The notes: a model not told the origin generated them from the sequence alone. Positions 9,251 through 26,512 are shown, counted from the first letter of the stretch. The stretch is DNA of 26,512 nucleotides from Bacteroidia bacterium (GCA_035299275.1 DATGWX010000199.1:1-26512), one strand, 5' to 3'. Program-made: numbers and translations.

Positions 9251-9742
9251 TCAGTATTTCTGAATCTCTTCATGAAAAAACTCTAATTGAACACCTGCTT
9301 GTTTGAGCATTTCTTCACTTTCGCCACCTGCGTGATATTTGCGCTCACATACCACCCGTTTAATACCACAGTTGATAATGAGCATGGCGCATACACGGCA
9401 GGGGGTCATGCGGCAATACAGCGTTGAACCATCCAGCGATACCCCGTTTTTGGCGGCCTGACAGATGGCATTTTGCTCAGCATGAACGGTACGTACGCAG
9501 TGTTCTGTAATGCTGTCGTCTTCATGAATCACTTTTTTCATCTGGTGGCCCACCTCATCGCAGTGAGGCAAACCAATGGGCGAACCTACATACCCGGTAA
9601 CCAGCAGTTGATTGCCGCGGGCTATTACACAGCCGCTTCGGCCACGGCCACAGGTTGCCCGCTTGCTTATGGCATCCATTACTTCCATAAAATATTCGTC
9701 CCAGGTGGGGCGAATGTAGTGTTCTCCTGTAGTTGTGCTCAT
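9251..9742 (-). CDS. dCMP deaminase (deoxycytidylate deaminase, ComEB/DCD family)
   Basis: RPTWDEYFM N-terminus, RATC, TGYVGSP, HAEQNA and PCRVC zinc/catalytic motifs, LIINCGIKRVV. Confidence 0.93.
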   Translation of the reverse strand: MSTTTGEHYIRPTWDEYFMEVMDAISKRATCGRGRSGCVIARGNQLLVTGYVGSPIGLPHCDEVGHQMKKVIHEDDSITEHCVRTVHAEQNAICQAAKNGVSLDGSTLYCRMTPCRVCAMLIINCGIKRVVCERKYHAGGESEEMLKQAGVQLEFFHEEIQKY

Positions 9743-9746
9743 GGCG

Positions 9747-10295
9747 TCAGTGTTTAATTACCGCATCAATTTGCTGGTAAAGTTCATCGAAAGTTCCGTT
9801 ATTTAAAAGGCTGTAATCAGCCAGTTGCATGCAGGCACTCAGGTTTTGTTTGTTGGGGTCGGTAGAGGTCATTTCGCGGTCTTCATTTTCACTAAAGGTT
9901 TCAAAGGAAACATGGTCGGTTTCTGATCCTCTTTTCAAAATACGGTCATACCGCACCTGTCTGTCAGCATCAACAGATAGCAGAATAAAATTACCCTTGG
10001 CCTTTAAGGCATTTACTTCACCTACCGTGCGTATGCTTTCAATAATGCAGTTGGTGCCGCTGGCCTGCGCTTCTTTAAACAACTCCTCAGCAATAAAACT
10101 GGGGCTGTTTTGTGCCCTGAGTGCATTGGCCGTATGGGTTAATGAATCGCGGTTTACTTCCTTACCCTGCGCCTTAATAATGTTGGTGAGGTACCCGCGC
10201 ACGGAGAAATGTTTAAATTGGTGGTGAGTAGTAAGGTACTCTACAATGGTGCCTTTGCCAGCACCCAATGTGCCTGTAATGCCTATAATTTTCAA
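9747..10295 (-). CDS. P-loop nucleoside-monophosphate kinase-like protein (dephospho-CoA kinase/UPF0200-like)
   Basis: TTG start. Walker A IIGITGTLGAGKGT, IIESIR (Walker-B-like), lid RYDRILKRG, ADYSLLNNGT C-terminus. Stop is 4 nt before the deaminase ATG. Confidence 0.8.
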   Translation of the reverse strand: MKIIGITGTLGAGKGTIVEYLTTHHQFKHFSVRGYLTNIIKAQGKEVNRDSLTHTANALRAQNSPSFIAEELFKEAQASGTNCIIESIRTVGEVNALKAKGNFILLSVDADRQVRYDRILKRGSETDHVSFETFSENEDREMTSTDPNKQNLSACMQLADYSLLNNGTFDELYQQIDAVIKH

Positions 10296-22016: not shown

Positions 22017-22065
22017 AAACCCTGACCAGGTCTTTATGCGGGAGTACAAAGACCTGTCAGGGTTT
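22017..22065. repeat. Long inverted repeat (REP-like / bidirectional terminator) AAACCCTGAC(C)AGGTCTTT - 12 nt - AAAGACCTGTCAGGGTTT
   Basis: 18-bp stem with one bulged C, between the convergent fhs and DUF2490 genes. Confidence 0.7.
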
Positions 22066-22075
22066 ATTTATTTAC

Positions 22076-22879
22076 TTAGTTAGGGTTCTTTCTCAAATCC
22101 AGATTAAGAAAGGAGTTTATGATAAAACCCTGATTATACTGAAAAACATTTTGTGTGCGTATTTGACGACCAAGTTGTACTATCTGGCAAAAATAGCCAC
22201 CTTCCACTTTAAATTTTTTATTAAATTGATAACCCAAAAGTAGCCCGGTACGGTTCTGGTCAAAAATGTTTTGCCCCACTTTGTTGCCAAAACCTAAAAA
22301 GACTTCATCATATACAACTGCATAGGGGAAGCGATTTGATTTGTCGACATTATCTGGTTTGCTTTCTAGAGATGAGGCAACCGAAGTAAGTGGTAGTTGA
22401 GCTCTGAACATATACCTCAGTCGATTAACATAAGTCCATTTGTCGCGCTCAGTAGAAGCAGCCGCGTTATATGTGGCCAGCCAGCGTTGTTCCAACATGT
22501 ACCGGTTGCTGAGCTCCAAACGCCCTATTTTTTGTTTAGTAGTAAGTGCCTCATACATCCTGTGTTCAGTAAACTGTTTCCCAAACGTATTGATAGGGTA
22601 CTTCCCGTAAGGATATGTTTCTATCCACCCGTAACCCACACGAAAAACGGCATCATCATTCAGGTGATAGTTAATTCCGGTACGTAGTAAACTTTGTTGC
22701 CAGGTGGTAATAAAATTATTTCTGCGCCACTGGTACTCGATATGTCCGCTCCACTTCTGTGCGAATTTCAGGGTGGAGGTATTGGTGTACCAACCAATAT
22801 TGTTATGGTCATTTATCCGCGGTTGTGCAAATACGTGAATATTGCACAGTACTAATGCCAATGCTGTGTATTTTTTCAT
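22076..22879 (-). CDS. DUF2490 family outer-membrane beta-barrel protein
   Basis: Signal peptide. EYQWRR, QQSLLRTGINY, EHRMYE, NRYMLEQRW, NRLRY, YDEVFL, FDQNR and GYQF motifs typical of DUF2490. Confidence 0.88.
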   Translation of the reverse strand: MKKYTALALVLCNIHVFAQPRINDHNNIGWYTNTSTLKFAQKWSGHIEYQWRRNNFITTWQQSLLRTGINYHLNDDAVFRVGYGWIETYPYGKYPINTFGKQFTEHRMYEALTTKQKIGRLELSNRYMLEQRWLATYNAAASTERDKWTYVNRLRYMFRAQLPLTSVASSLESKPDNVDKSNRFPYAVVYDEVFLGFGNKVGQNIFDQNRTGLLLGYQFNKKFKVEGGYFCQIVQLGRQIRTQNVFQYNQGFIINSFLNLDLRKNPN

Positions 22880-22888
22880 ATTGTATTT

Positions 22889-24544
22889 TTAGCCATTTAA
22901 CTTCATGTACTTTCTGGTTGCATGCGGGTGTGTTGAAAGCGGTTGATGGTTATCTAACCCCACTATTACAAATCGCCCACCGTGCTCTTCATAGTGGTGA
23001 GCCAGTTCTTCCATATGCTCCATTACCGTATGGTCAACCAGTTTCACTTCAGAGAAGTCAACCGTTATATTTTTTCCCTGTGGCAAATTATCCAATTGTT
23101 TTTTCAATCCAATGTAATTACTGAAAATAGCTGAATGTTCTACATCTATAATGTAGGTATGCTCATCAGGCTGTGTAATGGTAAGAAAAGGTTTAAACAA
23201 ACTTTTTAACGGTACACCATTATAGGTGTGAATAATCAGTTTTACTAAAATTCCGGCTGCAATACCAACGAGTAAATCACTGGCAAGTGTGACCACAATG
23301 GTGGAGATAAAAATAAGCAACTGTTCTTTTCCTGTACGGTAAGTTGCAACAAATTCTTTTGGAGAAGCCAGCCGGTACCCCGTAACCATAAGCATAGCCG
23401 CCAAGGCAGCCAGCGGGATTTGGTGAATAACCTGGCTGAGGAAAACTACAAAAATCAGAAGAAAAACTCCATGGAAGAAATTTGCCCAACGGGTTTTGGC
23501 TTGATTGTTTACATTAGCTGAACTACGCACTACTTCGGCAATAATGGGTAAACCACCCAAGGCAGAGGATAAAATGTTTCCTGACCCTTTCGCAAATAAC
23601 TCGCGGTTAAAATTTGATTTACGTTTGTAAGGATCAAGTTTGTCAATGGCCTTTGCGGTTAATAGAGATTCCAGGCTGGCTACTAACGCATAGGTAATCA
23701 TCATTTGAATACCAAAAGAAGTAAACAGGTAATCAAATCTGGGGAATACAATTCCATCTAACACATGCTCCGGGAGAGCTACGAGAAACTTTGGCCCCAG
23801 GGTGTATTCATGCCCGTCAAGAAAAAGGTACTTATGTTCATGTTCTAAATCGAAGAAATGTCCGAGCGGAATAGTAACTAATACCACCAATAATGGTGCA
23901 GGTATCATGTTAACATATTTGTTTTTTACCAGCGGTAAGCCAATCAGAATAATCAAACTTACTATTGCTATTACAGCTACCTCAGGATTCATGTTCATCA
24001 CACTATTCGGAATGGCGGCAATTACTTCGAGCATTTCTTTACCTTCTGGTTTTACACCCACAGCAGTATGAAACTGCTTGGCAAAAATCATAATACCTAT
24101 AGCAGCCAACATGCCGTGCACTACAGATGAAGGGAAGAAATTGCTGAGTACACCTGCTTTTACTAGTCCGAAAAGTAACTGTAATACTCCGCAACCCACT
24201 CCCACAGCCAGTGTAGCCTGGTAGGCAAACATCTCTGTTTCTTCAGGACTTAAACCAGCCGGTGCCATGCTGCGAAAGCCGTCTATACTCATCAGCACAA
24301 TTACAGCTAAACCTGCCGCTGGTCCGTTTATGGTTAAGTAAGAGCCGCTTGTTAAGGAGAGAATCAGCCCCCCCGTTATCCCGGCAATAATGCCGGCCAT
24401 AGGTGGAACACCTGAGGCCATGGCAATGCCCAAACAAAGTGGTAAGGCAATTAAAGAGATAATAAATCCGGAAAGCAAATCGCTTTTCCAGTTTTCTTTA
24501 AGTCCTGCTATTCCGTCAGCAGGGATATATTTTTTTGAAATCAT
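22889..24544 (-). CDS. SulP (SLC26) family anion permease with C-terminal STAS domain; probable bicarbonate transporter
   Basis: DLLSGFIISLIALPLCLGIAMASG, INGPAAGL, ASLESLL, GGLPIIAEVVRSSAN, STAS-like IFSNY...DFSEVKLVDHT. Confidence 0.93.
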   Translation of the reverse strand: MISKKYIPADGIAGLKENWKSDLLSGFIISLIALPLCLGIAMASGVPPMAGIIAGITGGLILSLTSGSYLTINGPAAGLAVIVLMSIDGFRSMAPAGLSPEETEMFAYQATLAVGVGCGVLQLLFGLVKAGVLSNFFPSSVVHGMLAAIGIMIFAKQFHTAVGVKPEGKEMLEVIAAIPNSVMNMNPEVAVIAIVSLIILIGLPLVKNKYVNMIPAPLLVVLVTIPLGHFFDLEHEHKYLFLDGHEYTLGPKFLVALPEHVLDGIVFPRFDYLFTSFGIQMMITYALVASLESLLTAKAIDKLDPYKRKSNFNRELFAKGSGNILSSALGGLPIIAEVVRSSANVNNQAKTRWANFFHGVFLLIFVVFLSQVIHQIPLAALAAMLMVTGYRLASPKEFVATYRTGKEQLLIFISTIVVTLASDLLVGIAAGILVKLIIHTYNGVPLKSLFKPFLTITQPDEHTYIIDVEHSAIFSNYIGLKKQLDNLPQGKNITVDFSEVKLVDHTVMEHMEELAHHYEEHGGRFVIVGLDNHQPLSTHPHATRKYMKLNG

Positions 24545-24561
24545 GTTTGTTTAATTGAAGG

Positions 24562-26430
24562 TTAAGAAGAACGATAAGGAATGTCTTTGGTGTTATGGAT
24601 GTAAGGACCAAGAAACACCCGGGCATAAATGCGTATCAGTGATATACCATCAACAATCAGGCTCACCGCAACAATAGCAGCCAGCACAAATTGATTTTCA
24701 TGGATATGACTGAAAATTAAATCCTCACCAATAAAGGTGGGAGTAATGGGAAATCCGGACAAACCCAGACAGGCCAGAAAGAATACGAAGGCCACTTTTT
24801 TGTACTTTACCGCATAACCATAAAACCGATGTAGTGATATGTTGCGTTCTTTTTCTCTGATGTATTGCAAGCACAGGTAACCGACTGTGCCTGACAGTAA
24901 CACACCACTTAGGTAAACCAAGGAATGACTGTAGTCAAAGTGTTCATTGTACGAAATGGCCAATACCGTAAAGCAGTGATTAAGCACAATCAGAATCAGG
25001 GTCATGCGTGCATTTTTACGCTCCACAAAAGAACGAAGTACCATAATAAGTCCCAACGCGGCCAGTACAATCGACATGTAGTTTTTGAGAAAATAAGGAA
25101 TGTACTGTTGGTGGTAGAGTGTGTAAAGGCCTGTTATCAGAACAGCACTGTAAATAACAATGGCTTGTTTTGTTTTCATGTAGCTTACTTTATTCCCTAC
25201 TGTTTTAAGTGCGCCCCACACGTATTTGTACATGAGCCAGTCAAGATTAAACTCTTTTATGCTAAGCATGTACAAGGTGTAAGAAAAGCGCTTCAGCCAT
25301 TTTTTTTCCGGAGTATGATCGGGAGGAGTGAAGTGATAGAATTGCTCACGTATGAGGTAACTTACCAGTGACGGGGAAACCAGCAACTGATACGTACGTA
25401 AAAAAGCATTTCCTGCAAAGTGCATCAAGGCGAGTGTTTCGAATCCTGCCGCTACTTCAATAAAGATAATCCCTATTTGAGCGGCCGATGCGTAGGCAAT
25501 CTGGCTTTTTACCGATGATTGTACGCGGGCAATTAAAGTAGTCACAACTGCTGTAGTCAATCCCAGTATACCAATGATGACTCTCACAGAATATTGATGC
25601 TCCCAGAAGTTGTACGTGCGCAACAATAAAAACACTCCGATATGTACCGATAAGGAACCATAAAAAATAGCACTGGAGGGTGTGGGTCCTTCCATTGCTC
25701 TGGGCAACCACGAAGAAAACGGCAGTTGAGCAGATTTGGCAGCAGCGGCTATCAACAACATCAATGAAATAAAAACACCAACCAGACTATGGCTTTGTAA
25801 ATGCTCATGTACCAATTCATAGTTGTTGAGCTTGATGAAGGTGATGTTTTCATGCCACAAATGATGACTCATCCACATAGCCAGCAGTATTCCTACATCG
25901 CCAATACGGTAAATGCTGAACACCTTCATGGCATTTTTAACCGGCAAATACCTGTGACGGTAAAATGCAATTAACAGGAAAGAGGATATTCCTAAAATCT
26001 CCCAACCCATAAATAGAGTCTCGAAATTTCCTGAAAGTACTGTGATGTTGTATCCTGTGTAAAAGAAAAGAATGGTGTTAAAGAACCTTTTATAGCCGGT
26101 TTCGCGGTGCATATAAAAACGGCTGTATACGGTTACCATTAGTGTTAGCAGGCCTCCAACCAGTAAATACACCAAACTGATTTTATCAAAGAAAAAATCC
26201 AGAGTGAATAAATATCCGGGTGATTCATAAATAACAAGTTCGCTCAAGTTGAGCATTGGGTGTCCGTTCAATAACCAGTATACACTAAAGGAGAGCAGAA
26301 GTAAAAAATTAAGTCCAACGGTAGCAAATACAGCAGAAGAAATAGTGGACTCCTTTTTTTCGTTTATGGTAAGGCTCAACACAAACCCTATAATAGGTAT
26401 GAAGATGAAAAAATGAAGTATATTCTCCAT
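24562..26430 (-). CDS. NuoL/MrpA-like proton-conducting membrane subunit; probable DabB/MpsA-type inorganic-carbon transporter subunit
   Basis: FFDKIS, YSRFYM, GWEILGISSFLLI, YRIGD, KSAQLPFSSWLPRAMEGPTPSSA. No other nuo genes adjacent; flanked by SulP and a probable DUF2309 tail. Confidence 0.85.
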   Translation of the reverse strand: MENILHFFIFIPIIGFVLSLTINEKKESTISSAVFATVGLNFLLLLSFSVYWLLNGHPMLNLSELVIYESPGYLFTLDFFFDKISLVYLLVGGLLTLMVTVYSRFYMHRETGYKRFFNTILFFYTGYNITVLSGNFETLFMGWEILGISSFLLIAFYRHRYLPVKNAMKVFSIYRIGDVGILLAMWMSHHLWHENITFIKLNNYELVHEHLQSHSLVGVFISLMLLIAAAAKSAQLPFSSWLPRAMEGPTPSSAIFYGSLSVHIGVFLLLRTYNFWEHQYSVRVIIGILGLTTAVVTTLIARVQSSVKSQIAYASAAQIGIIFIEVAAGFETLALMHFAGNAFLRTYQLLVSPSLVSYLIREQFYHFTPPDHTPEKKWLKRFSYTLYMLSIKEFNLDWLMYKYVWGALKTVGNKVSYMKTKQAIVIYSAVLITGLYTLYHQQYIPYFLKNYMSIVLAALGLIMVLRSFVERKNARMTLILIVLNHCFTVLAISYNEHFDYSHSLVYLSGVLLSGTVGYLCLQYIREKERNISLHRFYGYAVKYKKVAFVFFLACLGLSGFPITPTFIGEDLIFSHIHENQFVLAAIVAVSLIVDGISLIRIYARVFLGPYIHNTKDIPYRSS

Positions 26431-26432
26431 GA

Positions 26433-26510
26433 TTAGCCGTGTTGAAATAAATGAACAGGAATATCTTCATCTGTTGACTCAATGAGCGAATGAAAATCAC
26501 TCACCTCAGG
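26433..26510 (-). CDS. 3' end of an upstream gene (partial), probably DUF2309/DabA
   Basis: Open frame from the window edge, ...PEVSDFHSLIESTDEDIPVHLFQHG*, stops 2 nt before the DabB-like ATG. It resembles the '(L/I)(I/E)E..EE.(L/I)PV' C-termini I recall for Bacteroidota DUF2309 proteins. Only 25 codons are visible, so the call leans on context. Confidence 0.5.
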   Translation of the reverse strand, partial: PEVSDFHSLIESTDEDIPVHLFQHG

Positions 26511-26512
26511 AA

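What the first reader, a model, noticed from the sequence alone, without database searches (positions are those of the whole stretch)
22076..26510. Candidate multi-component inorganic-carbon uptake operon (DabA tail - DabB - SulP/STAS - DUF2490) in a presumed heterotroph
Seen: four same-strand genes with gaps of 2, 17 and 9 nt. Known: DUF2309 + NuoL-like pairs (DabAB, S. aureus MpsAB) are energised CO2-to-HCO3- pumps, and SulPs with the E(V/I)VRSSAN motif often accompany beta-carbonic anhydrases. Inference: one operon combines an energised DAB pump, a second bicarbonate carrier and an outer-membrane barrel, a carbon-concentrating toolkit serving anaplerotic or biosynthetic carboxylases rather than Rubisco. 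Bicarbonate-using CarB and the C1 enzyme Fhs lie in the same window. DAB itself is known; the extended architecture is the possibly undescribed part. The DabA call rests on only 25 visible codons.
Basis: partly seen in the sequence, partly recalled or inferred. Interest (0 to 1): 0.7.

Follow-up and report, generated by a model that had tools for sequence, protein, structure and literature searches.

The report
DabAB CO2 pump with SulP and porin
A freshwater or sludge Bacteroidia bacterium with no Rubisco found carries one operon joining a known energised CO2-to-bicarbonate pump (DabAB) to a distinct SulP anion carrier and an outer-membrane barrel, a layout conserved across many Bacteroidia families that I did not find described, so it looks like an envelope-spanning inorganic-carbon uptake unit.

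Summary
On the minus strand lie the dabA 3' end (26433-26512), dabB (24562-26430), a SulP/STAS gene (22889-24544) and a DUF2490 gene (22076-22879). The gaps are 2, 17 and 9 nt, and a strong hairpin closes the unit.

The rest of dabA (795 aa, PF10070, E 3e-217) is on the neighbouring contig. About 13 codons are lost in the assembly gap. All zinc-site residues of the solved DabA2 structure are kept.

The extended layout is not chance. Of 43 DabA-seeded loci sampled evenly across the class, 28 carry this SulP clade ("type A") beside dabAB. In 26 of those 28 an outer-membrane barrel also lies in the cluster, usually right after the SulP gene. The barrel is either DUF2490 or an unrelated OprP/ExtI-like porin of about 440 aa. 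The two swap within one genus. A second SulP clade pairs with a beta-carbonic anhydrase instead.

My best reading (about 0.6) is CO2 capture by DabAB plus bicarbonate entry through barrel and SulP, feeding carboxylases in a cell where no Rubisco was found. The SulP and barrel substrates are inferred, not shown.

I found no paper describing this layout. An earlier scan note on the same window (e1-5330770) proposed the barrel idea.

The parts
26433..26512 (-). 3' end of dabA (last 25 codons plus stop). The body of the gene is on contig C198 of the same genome (L001:3-2387, minus strand).
   Evidence: The tail is identical to the DabA C-terminus of G002, and about 13 codons are missing between the contigs. 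Zinc site C331, D333, R335, H502, C517 aligns to C351, D353, R355, H524, C539 of H. neapolitanus DabA2, chain 9rd0_A (residue roles from PMC13144422).
24562..26430 (-). dabB, the NuoL-like membrane subunit (622 aa). Its ATG lies 2 nt after the dabA stop.
   Evidence: Pfam PF00361 and PF00662. All NCBIfam NuoL and Mrp hits fall below their cut-offs. It sits next to DabA in all 56 clustered loci. PDB sequence search: NuoL E 1e-40, DabB2 (9rd0_B) E 2e-25.
22889..24544 (-). SulP/SLC26 anion transporter with a C-terminal STAS domain (551 aa), the 'type A' clade. TM10 signature EVVRSSAN starts at residue 337.
   Evidence: Pfam. Below the cut-offs for the BicA, DauA and sulP NCBIfam models. The clade has 100/100 support in the tree. 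It co-occurs with DabA in the sampled genomes.
22076..22879 (-). DUF2490 (PF10677) outer-membrane beta-barrel (267 aa), last gene of the unit.
   Evidence: Pfam 133.6 bits against a cut-off of 29.8. AF2 model: pLDDT 84.7, N-terminal helix, then 11 long strands by DSSP. Best structural matches are 12-stranded barrels: PcoB Z 14.2, NanC Z 13.2, KdgM Z 12.5; Foldseek gives NanC prob 1.0.
22017..22065 (-). Hairpin with a U-tract just after the DUF2490 stop, lying between the convergent DUF2490 and fhs genes. Likely a terminator closing the unit.
   Evidence: RNA fold -28.8 kcal/mol, z-score -7.6, none of 200 shuffles as stable. Sequence read.

Best explanation
This is an inorganic-carbon supply operon with two routes.

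(1) DabA-DabB is a DAB/MpsAB-type vectorial carbonic anhydrase. CO2 that diffuses in is hydrated at the DabA zinc site, and cation flow through the NuoL-like DabB makes the reaction one-way. Bicarbonate is trapped in the cytoplasm.

(2) The type-A SulP is an ion-coupled bicarbonate importer in the inner membrane. The DUF2490 barrel is the outer-membrane channel that lets the charged anion reach it. CO2 needs no such channel.

Together the two routes would supply bicarbonate whether the water holds mostly CO2 or mostly bicarbonate. The likely consumers are two biotin carboxylases and CarB, in an organism where no Rubisco was found.

Shown here: gene identities, an intact DabA catalytic site, the operon layout, the conserved linkage, and the barrel fold. 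Inferred: the substrates of the SulP and the barrel, the direction of transport, and co-transcription.
For: DabA zinc ligands and the Asp-Arg dyad are all conserved (with PMC13144422).

Of 43 DabA-seeded loci drawn evenly across the class, 28 have a type-A SulP in the cluster (one split by a contig end), 7 have a type-B SulP with a beta-CA, and 8 have none. In 26 of the 28 type-A loci an outer-membrane barrel gene lies in the cluster, usually right after the SulP.

The barrel is either DUF2490 or an unrelated roughly 440-aa porin, c3 (hhalign probability 3.7%). c3 folds like OprP/OprO (TM 0.58-0.61) and weakly matches the ExtI oxyanion porin model. The two barrels alternate between close SulP relatives, including within the window's genus. 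Positional replacement suggests equivalent roles.

Genome-level co-occurrence: 39 of 53 genomes with a SulP hit at E <= 1e-95 also have DabA, out of 201 searched. The SulP-barrel pair can sit apart from dabAB in genomes that still carry DabA (G011, UKL13-3).

The alternative partner of DabAB, SulP plus beta-CA, ties SulPs at this position to inorganic carbon.

No Rubisco or PEP carboxylase was found; two biotin carboxylases were.

Literature: MpsAB and CA are interchangeable in heterotrophs (PMC6689103). DAC genes are absent from autotrophs with pH optima above 8.3, while SulPs predicted to be bicarbonate carriers are more abundant at high pH (PMC10880623).
Against: No SulP of this clade has been characterised. 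It scores far below the BicA model (109 bits against a cut-off of 880) and is only distantly related to any solved SLC26 protein, so bicarbonate is a guess from context.

DUF2490 is found in 166 of 201 sampled genomes, often in several copies. Only about 17 of roughly 340 genes lie next to these modules (compared), so the family as a whole is not bicarbonate-specific.

A preprint reports a buried charge network inside many DUF2490 barrels, which could mean a plugged lumen.

SulP relatives at 46-52% identity exist beside no dabAB: a Leptospira genome has no DabA match at all, and two Melainabacteria-type and one Leptospiraceae locus show no dabAB within 8 kb.

In S. aureus a third gene, mpsC, proved dispensable.
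Confidence: 0.6

Rival explanations
1. The SulP-barrel pair takes up another scarce oxyanion, such as sulfate, and is linked to DabAB because the SulP works as an anion/bicarbonate exchanger. DabAB would build the outward bicarbonate gradient that pays for uptake.
For: The Pfam family is 'sulfate permease'. The barrel that alternates with DUF2490 resembles phosphate and selenite/tellurite oxyanion porins. Mammalian SLC26 chloride anion exchangers are among the solved relatives; that they exchange bicarbonate is my own knowledge.
Against: Characterised bacterial SulPs are symporters (BicA, SLC26Dg; own knowledge). The parallel architecture of SulP plus beta-CA next to DabAB points to inorganic carbon as the cargo. 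No sulfate-assimilation genes recur in the clusters.
Confidence: 0.15
2. The unit serves pH or ion homeostasis rather than carbon supply. DabAB hydrates metabolic CO2, releasing a proton inside, and the SulP and barrel export the bicarbonate. The net effect would be cytoplasmic acidification in alkaline water.
For: MpsAB was first described as a membrane-potential and Na+ system. The nearest complete genome, UKL13-3, came from a cyanobacterial lake co-culture, and several related MAG records are named after lakes, ponds or reservoirs. That such blooms raise pH is my own knowledge.
Against: DAB and MpsAB rescue CA-free cells by supplying bicarbonate. Exporting the product would waste the energy spent. 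The window's DNA is also found in sludge, biofilm, wastewater, freshwater sediment and soil-labelled metagenomes.
Confidence: 0.12
3. There is no functional link: the SulP and DUF2490 genes are unrelated neighbours of dabAB.
For: 8 of 43 sampled dabAB loci have no SulP, and mpsC in S. aureus is dispensable.
Against: The linkage recurs across many sampled Bacteroidia families in two gene orders, with short gaps and genome-level co-occurrence.
Confidence: 0.05

Closest known systems
DAB2 (DabA2-DabB2) of Halothiobacillus neapolitanus; MpsAB of Staphylococcus aureus
   Same: A PF10070 subunit with the Cys2His zinc site and Asp-Arg dyad, paired with a PF00361 NuoL-like subunit. Two adjacent genes. 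No DabC-like multi-helix subunit was seen. A heterotroph context, as for MpsAB.
   Different: DabA matches DabA2 only at E 7.6e-57, and DabB is closer to NuoL than to DabB2. A SulP, an outer-membrane barrel and a small leader ORF are conserved partners here. None of these is reported for DAB or MpsAB, and mpsC is unrelated and dispensable.
BicA (cyanobacterial SulP Na+/bicarbonate symporter)
   Same: SLC26 fold with a STAS domain, working beside a CO2-hydrating pump as in cyanobacterial carbon-concentrating systems.
   Different: Scores 109 bits against the 880-bit BicA cut-off, and matches the solved BicA chain (6ki1) only at E 4e-19. Substrate unknown. Paired with an outer-membrane barrel.
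SulP plus beta-carbonic anhydrase pairs and fusions
   Same: Present in the same lineage. Type-B SulP-CA sits beside dabAB in 7 sampled loci. Relatives of the window's organism carry a SulP-CA fusion elsewhere in the genome.
   Different: The window's SulP belongs to the other clade (100/100 support), which pairs with porins and never with a CA.
OprP/OprO anion porins and the ExtI porin; NanC/KdgM/PcoB 12-stranded channels
   Same: c3, the alternative occupant of the slot, has the OprP/OprO-like fold and size. DUF2490 has the 12-stranded monomeric channel fold.
   Different: No sequence-level membership: c3 scores 56 bits against the 150-bit ExtI cut-off. DUF2490 is only listed as a putative porin family, TC 1.B.81, with no function established.

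Membership tests
DAB / MpsAB (DabA, PF10070) | Full-length PF10070 domain | tested here: met
   E 3.3e-217, profile positions 2-747 of 747, on contig C198. The window holds only the last 25 codons.
DAB / MpsAB (DabA, PF10070) | Zinc ligands Cys-His-Cys and the Asp-Arg dyad | tested here: met
   C331, D333, R335, H502, C517 align to C351, D353, R355, H524, C539 of chain 9rd0_A. Their roles are given in PMC13144422.
DAB / MpsAB (DabA, PF10070) | Adjacent PF00361 membrane partner (DabB) | tested here: met
   2-nt gap in the window. DabA and DabB are adjacent in 56 of 56 clustered loci.
DAB / MpsAB (DabA, PF10070) | Energy-coupled CO2 hydration; rescue of carbonic-anhydrase-free E. coli in air | not testable with these tools
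   Needs complementation and 14C uptake assays.
SulP / SLC26 | Sulfate_transp membrane domain plus C-terminal STAS | tested here: met
   PF00916 at 209 bits; STAS at 24.8 bits against a cut-off of 22.6.
BicA bicarbonate transporter (NF050096) | Score above the curated equivalog cut-off | tested here: not met
   109.1 bits against 880. DauA likewise: 173 against 614.
DUF2490 (PF10677; TC 1.B.81 putative porin) | Pfam domain above the gathering score | tested here: met
   133.6 bits against 29.8.
DUF2490 (PF10677; TC 1.B.81 putative porin) | Outer-membrane beta-barrel with a signal peptide | tested here: met
   AF2 model with an N-terminal helix followed by a barrel. Z 12.5-14.2 to the 12-stranded barrels PcoB, NanC and KdgM. 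The signal peptide is inferred from the N-terminal hydrophobic helix only.
DUF2490 (PF10677; TC 1.B.81 putative porin) | Open, anion-selective pore | not testable with these tools
   Ten of the 18 invariant residues are Arg or Glu. Whether they line an open pore needs bilayer recordings or a solved structure.

The most novel reading that the evidence does not exclude
The type-A SulP with its barrel (DUF2490, or the unnamed OprP/ExtI-like porin) is a dedicated two-membrane bicarbonate uptake path genetically coupled to DabAB. That would make these barrels the first outer-membrane bicarbonate channels I know of. It would also give a function to a subset of DUF2490 and to a Pfam-less porin family. 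A conserved small leader protein would be a further, unknown component or regulator.
Probability: 0.35. Interest if true: 0.7.

Novelty: new variant of a known kind. Interest (0 to 1): 0.55.

Why it matters
DAB/MpsAB pumps are known as two-gene systems, or three-gene systems with DabC. Here a distinct SulP clade and an outer-membrane barrel are conserved partners across many Bacteroidia families. This suggests that heterotrophs in fresh water and sludge run a small CO2-plus-bicarbonate uptake kit resembling that of cyanobacteria.

It gives testable functions to three uncharacterised protein groups: a SulP clade, a subset of DUF2490, and a Pfam-less porin family. It also raises the little-studied question of how bicarbonate crosses the outer membrane.

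Practical interest lies in dark or anaplerotic carbon fixation budgets, and in parts for engineering bicarbonate uptake.

Tried and rejected
- The search for related loci with the DUF2490 alignment failed because no stretch was conserved enough. The SulP protein was used instead.
- Homology between c3 and DUF2490 is rejected: hhalign probability 3.7%.
- A profile of c3 finds no solved structure by sequence.
- A conserved RNA element upstream of dabA, as an alternative to the small ORF: no Rfam match at E <= 1, and pN/pS of 0.20 and 0.32 favours coding.
- The sigma-70 promoter and generic terminator scans were at chance level. The Bacteroidetes-type TAnnTTTG motif upstream of the small ORF is also at chance count.
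- Expression: no RNA holder was listed for this DNA.
- The link between the E(V/I)VRSSAN motif and beta-CA was not seen.
- CarB and Fhs as functional context are rejected; the synteny holds only in the closest genomes.
- LysR or CA upstream of dabA: not present.
- Complex prediction was not used, because no protein-protein binding is claimed.
- Literature searches for the layout found nothing. The library lacks most subscription journals.

Full report
**What is in the window.** The last 4.4 kb hold four minus-strand genes:
- a 25-codon open frame ending at 26433;
- a 622-aa NuoL-like protein (24562-26430; PF00361 and PF00662);
- a 551-aa SulP/STAS transporter (22889-24544);
- a 267-aa DUF2490 protein (22076-22879; PF10677, E 8.6e-39).

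The gaps are 2, 17 and 9 nt. Directly after the DUF2490 stop sits a hairpin of -28.8 kcal/mol (z -7.6), between DUF2490 and the convergent fhs gene. Generic promoter and terminator scans inside the unit are at chance level.

**The DabA call.** The window is contig C199 of a 2.5-Mb, 83%-complete genome. Contig C198 carries a 795-aa frame that runs off its first base and matches PF10070 from end to end (E 3e-217). In genome G002 (95-97% protein identity) the locus is unbroken: LigB-type dioxygenase, small ORF, DabA (833 aa), DabB, SulP, DUF2490, then fhs on the other strand. Its DabA C-terminus matches the window tail exactly. About 13 residues fall in the assembly gap.

Aligned to the solved H. 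neapolitanus DabA2 (9rd0_A), the protein keeps C331, D333, R335, H502 and C517. These correspond to the zinc ligands and Asp-Arg dyad whose mutation impaired DAB2-dependent growth under CO2 limitation. DabB is closer to NuoL (E 1e-40) than to DabB2 (E 2e-25). It is nonetheless adjacent to DabA in all 56 clustered loci.

**Organism.** The closest records are uncultured Bacteroidia MAGs and the complete genome 'Bacteroidetes bacterium UKL13-3'. The DNA occurs in sludge, biofilm, wastewater, freshwater sediment and soil-labelled metagenomes.
- Rubisco was not found in the genome or in five relatives, four of them 99% complete and one 90%.
- PEP carboxylase was not found. Two biotin carboxylases were.
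- No beta-CA was found in the incomplete genome.
- Four same-genus relatives carry a beta-CA only as the C-terminal part of a 742-767-aa SulP-CA fusion elsewhere in the genome. G012, from another genus of the family, has a stand-alone beta-CA gene just downstream of a SulP paralog.

**Is the extended layout conserved?** PF10070 was found in 53 of 201 genomes drawn evenly across the class. I fetched 48 of these loci. Five belong to a distant DabA clade (27-29% identity) and have no SulP.

Among the 43 loci of the window's clade:

| Partner in the dabAB cluster | Loci |
|---|---|
| SulP of the window's clade (type A), just after dabB or just before dabA; one split by a contig end | 28 |
| Second SulP clade (type B), usually followed by a beta-CA | 7 |
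| No SulP | 8 |

The two SulP clades separate with 100/100 support. The SulP-seeded loci from relatives and from 185,579 species genomes show the same picture.

At genome level, 39 of the 53 genomes with a SulP hit at E <= 1e-95 also have DabA. Ten of the 14 exceptions are 738-773-aa frames at 35-43% identity, which look like fused paralogs rather than type A. Related genomes are not independent, so I give no statistic.

**The barrel slot.** In 26 of the 28 type-A loci a gene for a signal-peptide protein also lies in the cluster, usually right after the SulP.
- In 9 loci it is DUF2490.
- In 17 loci it is 'c3', a 435-455-aa family with no Pfam match.

The two families are not detectably related (hhalign probability 3.7%).
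- c3 folds as a large porin whose best-covering matches are OprP and OprO (TM 0.58-0.61). It weakly matches the ExtI selenite/tellurite porin model. It also clusters with proteins of which 12% carry Porin_O_P.
- DUF2490 folds (pLDDT 84.7) as a small barrel closest to the 12-stranded channels PcoB, NanC and KdgM (Z 12.5-14.2).

c3 and DUF2490 alternate between close SulP relatives. Within the window's own genus, G000, G002 and G004 have DUF2490, while G001, G003 and G005 have c3. Such replacement in a fixed slot argues for equivalent roles, most simply as an outer-membrane channel serving the SulP.

The SulP-barrel pair can also sit away from dabAB in genomes that still carry DabA (G011, UKL13-3). 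The operon is therefore two modules that are usually joined.

**Mechanism.** DabAB acts on CO2, which crosses membranes unaided. A SulP acts on an anion, which needs a path through the outer membrane. That explains why the barrel usually follows the SulP gene rather than dabAB.

The parallel arrangement of SulP plus beta-CA beside dabAB, together with the genome-level co-occurrence, makes bicarbonate the most economical substrate. The kit would then cover both inorganic-carbon species. [quoted passage not shown]

This part is inference. The SulP is far below the BicA and DauA cut-offs and distant from every solved SLC26 protein. DUF2490 occurs in 166 of 201 sampled genomes, mostly in other contexts. 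A preprint reports a buried charge network in many DUF2490 models.

The rivals are uptake of another oxyanion by exchange against bicarbonate, and bicarbonate export for pH control.

- The VRSSAN core is common to both SulP clades. The Glu-preceded form is confined to the porin-linked clade and absent from all 10 CA-linked SulPs.
- CarB and Fhs are housekeeping neighbours, and the synteny is shared only with the closest genomes.

**Further component.** A 105-150-aa ORF heads these operons, upstream of dabA or of the type-A sulP, and sometimes both. It has an N-terminal hydrophobic helix, an acidic patch and a C-terminus ending [FLW][RK][IL]. In the window's genome it is L001:2511-2861. Values of pN/pS of 0.20 and 0.32 favour coding, and no Rfam family matches.

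**Literature.** Searches found no description of a DabAB-SulP-barrel operon. DUF2490 is listed only as a putative porin family.

**Caveat on sources.** The 201-genome tallies include the unpublished genomes G116 and G199. Only the DUF2490 count rests on matches in them.

Noticed in passing
L001:2511-2861 (-), contig C198 of the window's genome; also L023:4061-4411 and L090:7575-7910: A small ORF family (105-150 aa) heads the operon, upstream of dabA or of the type-A sulP. It has an N-terminal hydrophobic helix, an acidic patch and a C-terminus ending [FLW][RK][IL]. There is no Pfam or NCBIfam match. pN/pS of 0.20 and 0.32 suggests a real gene.
   Followed up: partly
L024:9999-11306 (+) and 23 further loci: c3 is a 435-455-aa signal-peptide protein with no Pfam match. 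It has an OprP/OprO-like porin fold and a weak match to the ExtI porin model. It occupies the slot after the type-A sulP in place of DUF2490.
   Followed up: partly
L039, L059, L067, L069, L072, L074, L082, L084: A second operon type: small ORF ending ...EVYSPPE, type-B SulP, cytoplasmic beta-CA, dabA, dabB. A cytoplasmic CA beside an energised CO2 pump looks like a futile cycle and is unexplained.
   Followed up: partly
L022:2483-3217 (G004) against window 22076-22879: In G004, DabB and SulP are 98-99% identical to the window's proteins and Fhs is 100% identical. DUF2490 is only 67% identical. This suggests allele replacement or fast divergence of the surface protein.
   Followed up: no
G002:C11:47919-50051 and G001:C65:11296-13428; own genome G000:C225:3118-4074: Same-genus relatives carry their only beta-CA as a SulP-CA fusion (742-767-aa frames). 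The window's genome shows a partial second SulP at a contig end and no beta-CA.
   Followed up: partly
G000:C222:1188-1850: An alpha-carbonic anhydrase match (E 1e-36, 504-aa frame) is present in the window's genome but in none of four same-genus relatives. It may be strain-specific or contamination (estimated at 3.2%).
   Followed up: no
L040-L044: A distant DabA clade (27-29% identity to the window's DabA, higher Pfam scores) occurs in five sampled genomes. No SulP lies nearby.
   Followed up: no
L125:4495-9599: In a Leptospiraceae MAG a 52%-identical SulP lies directly after complex-I or group-4-hydrogenase-like genes (PF00361, NuoD-like, NuoB-like with Fe-S domains).
   Followed up: no
L090:7575-12515: UKL13-3 has small ORF, SulP, DUF2490, an OmpR-type response regulator and a histidine kinase, with dabA about 1 Mb away. 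An OmpR-type regulator (cluster c6) also recurs near five other loci.
   Followed up: partly
window 9251-10295 (-): A P-loop kinase-like ORF (AAA_18) sits 4 nt upstream of a dCMP/cytidine deaminase ORF. The domain calls of the other scan note are confirmed; nothing further was tested.
   Followed up: no
L091, L098, L106, L122 (record titles): Contigs carrying this Bacteroidia-type locus are titled Methylacidiphilales, Bifidobacterium, Bifidobacteriaceae and Comamonadaceae in public records. These look like mislabelled MAGs.
   Followed up: no
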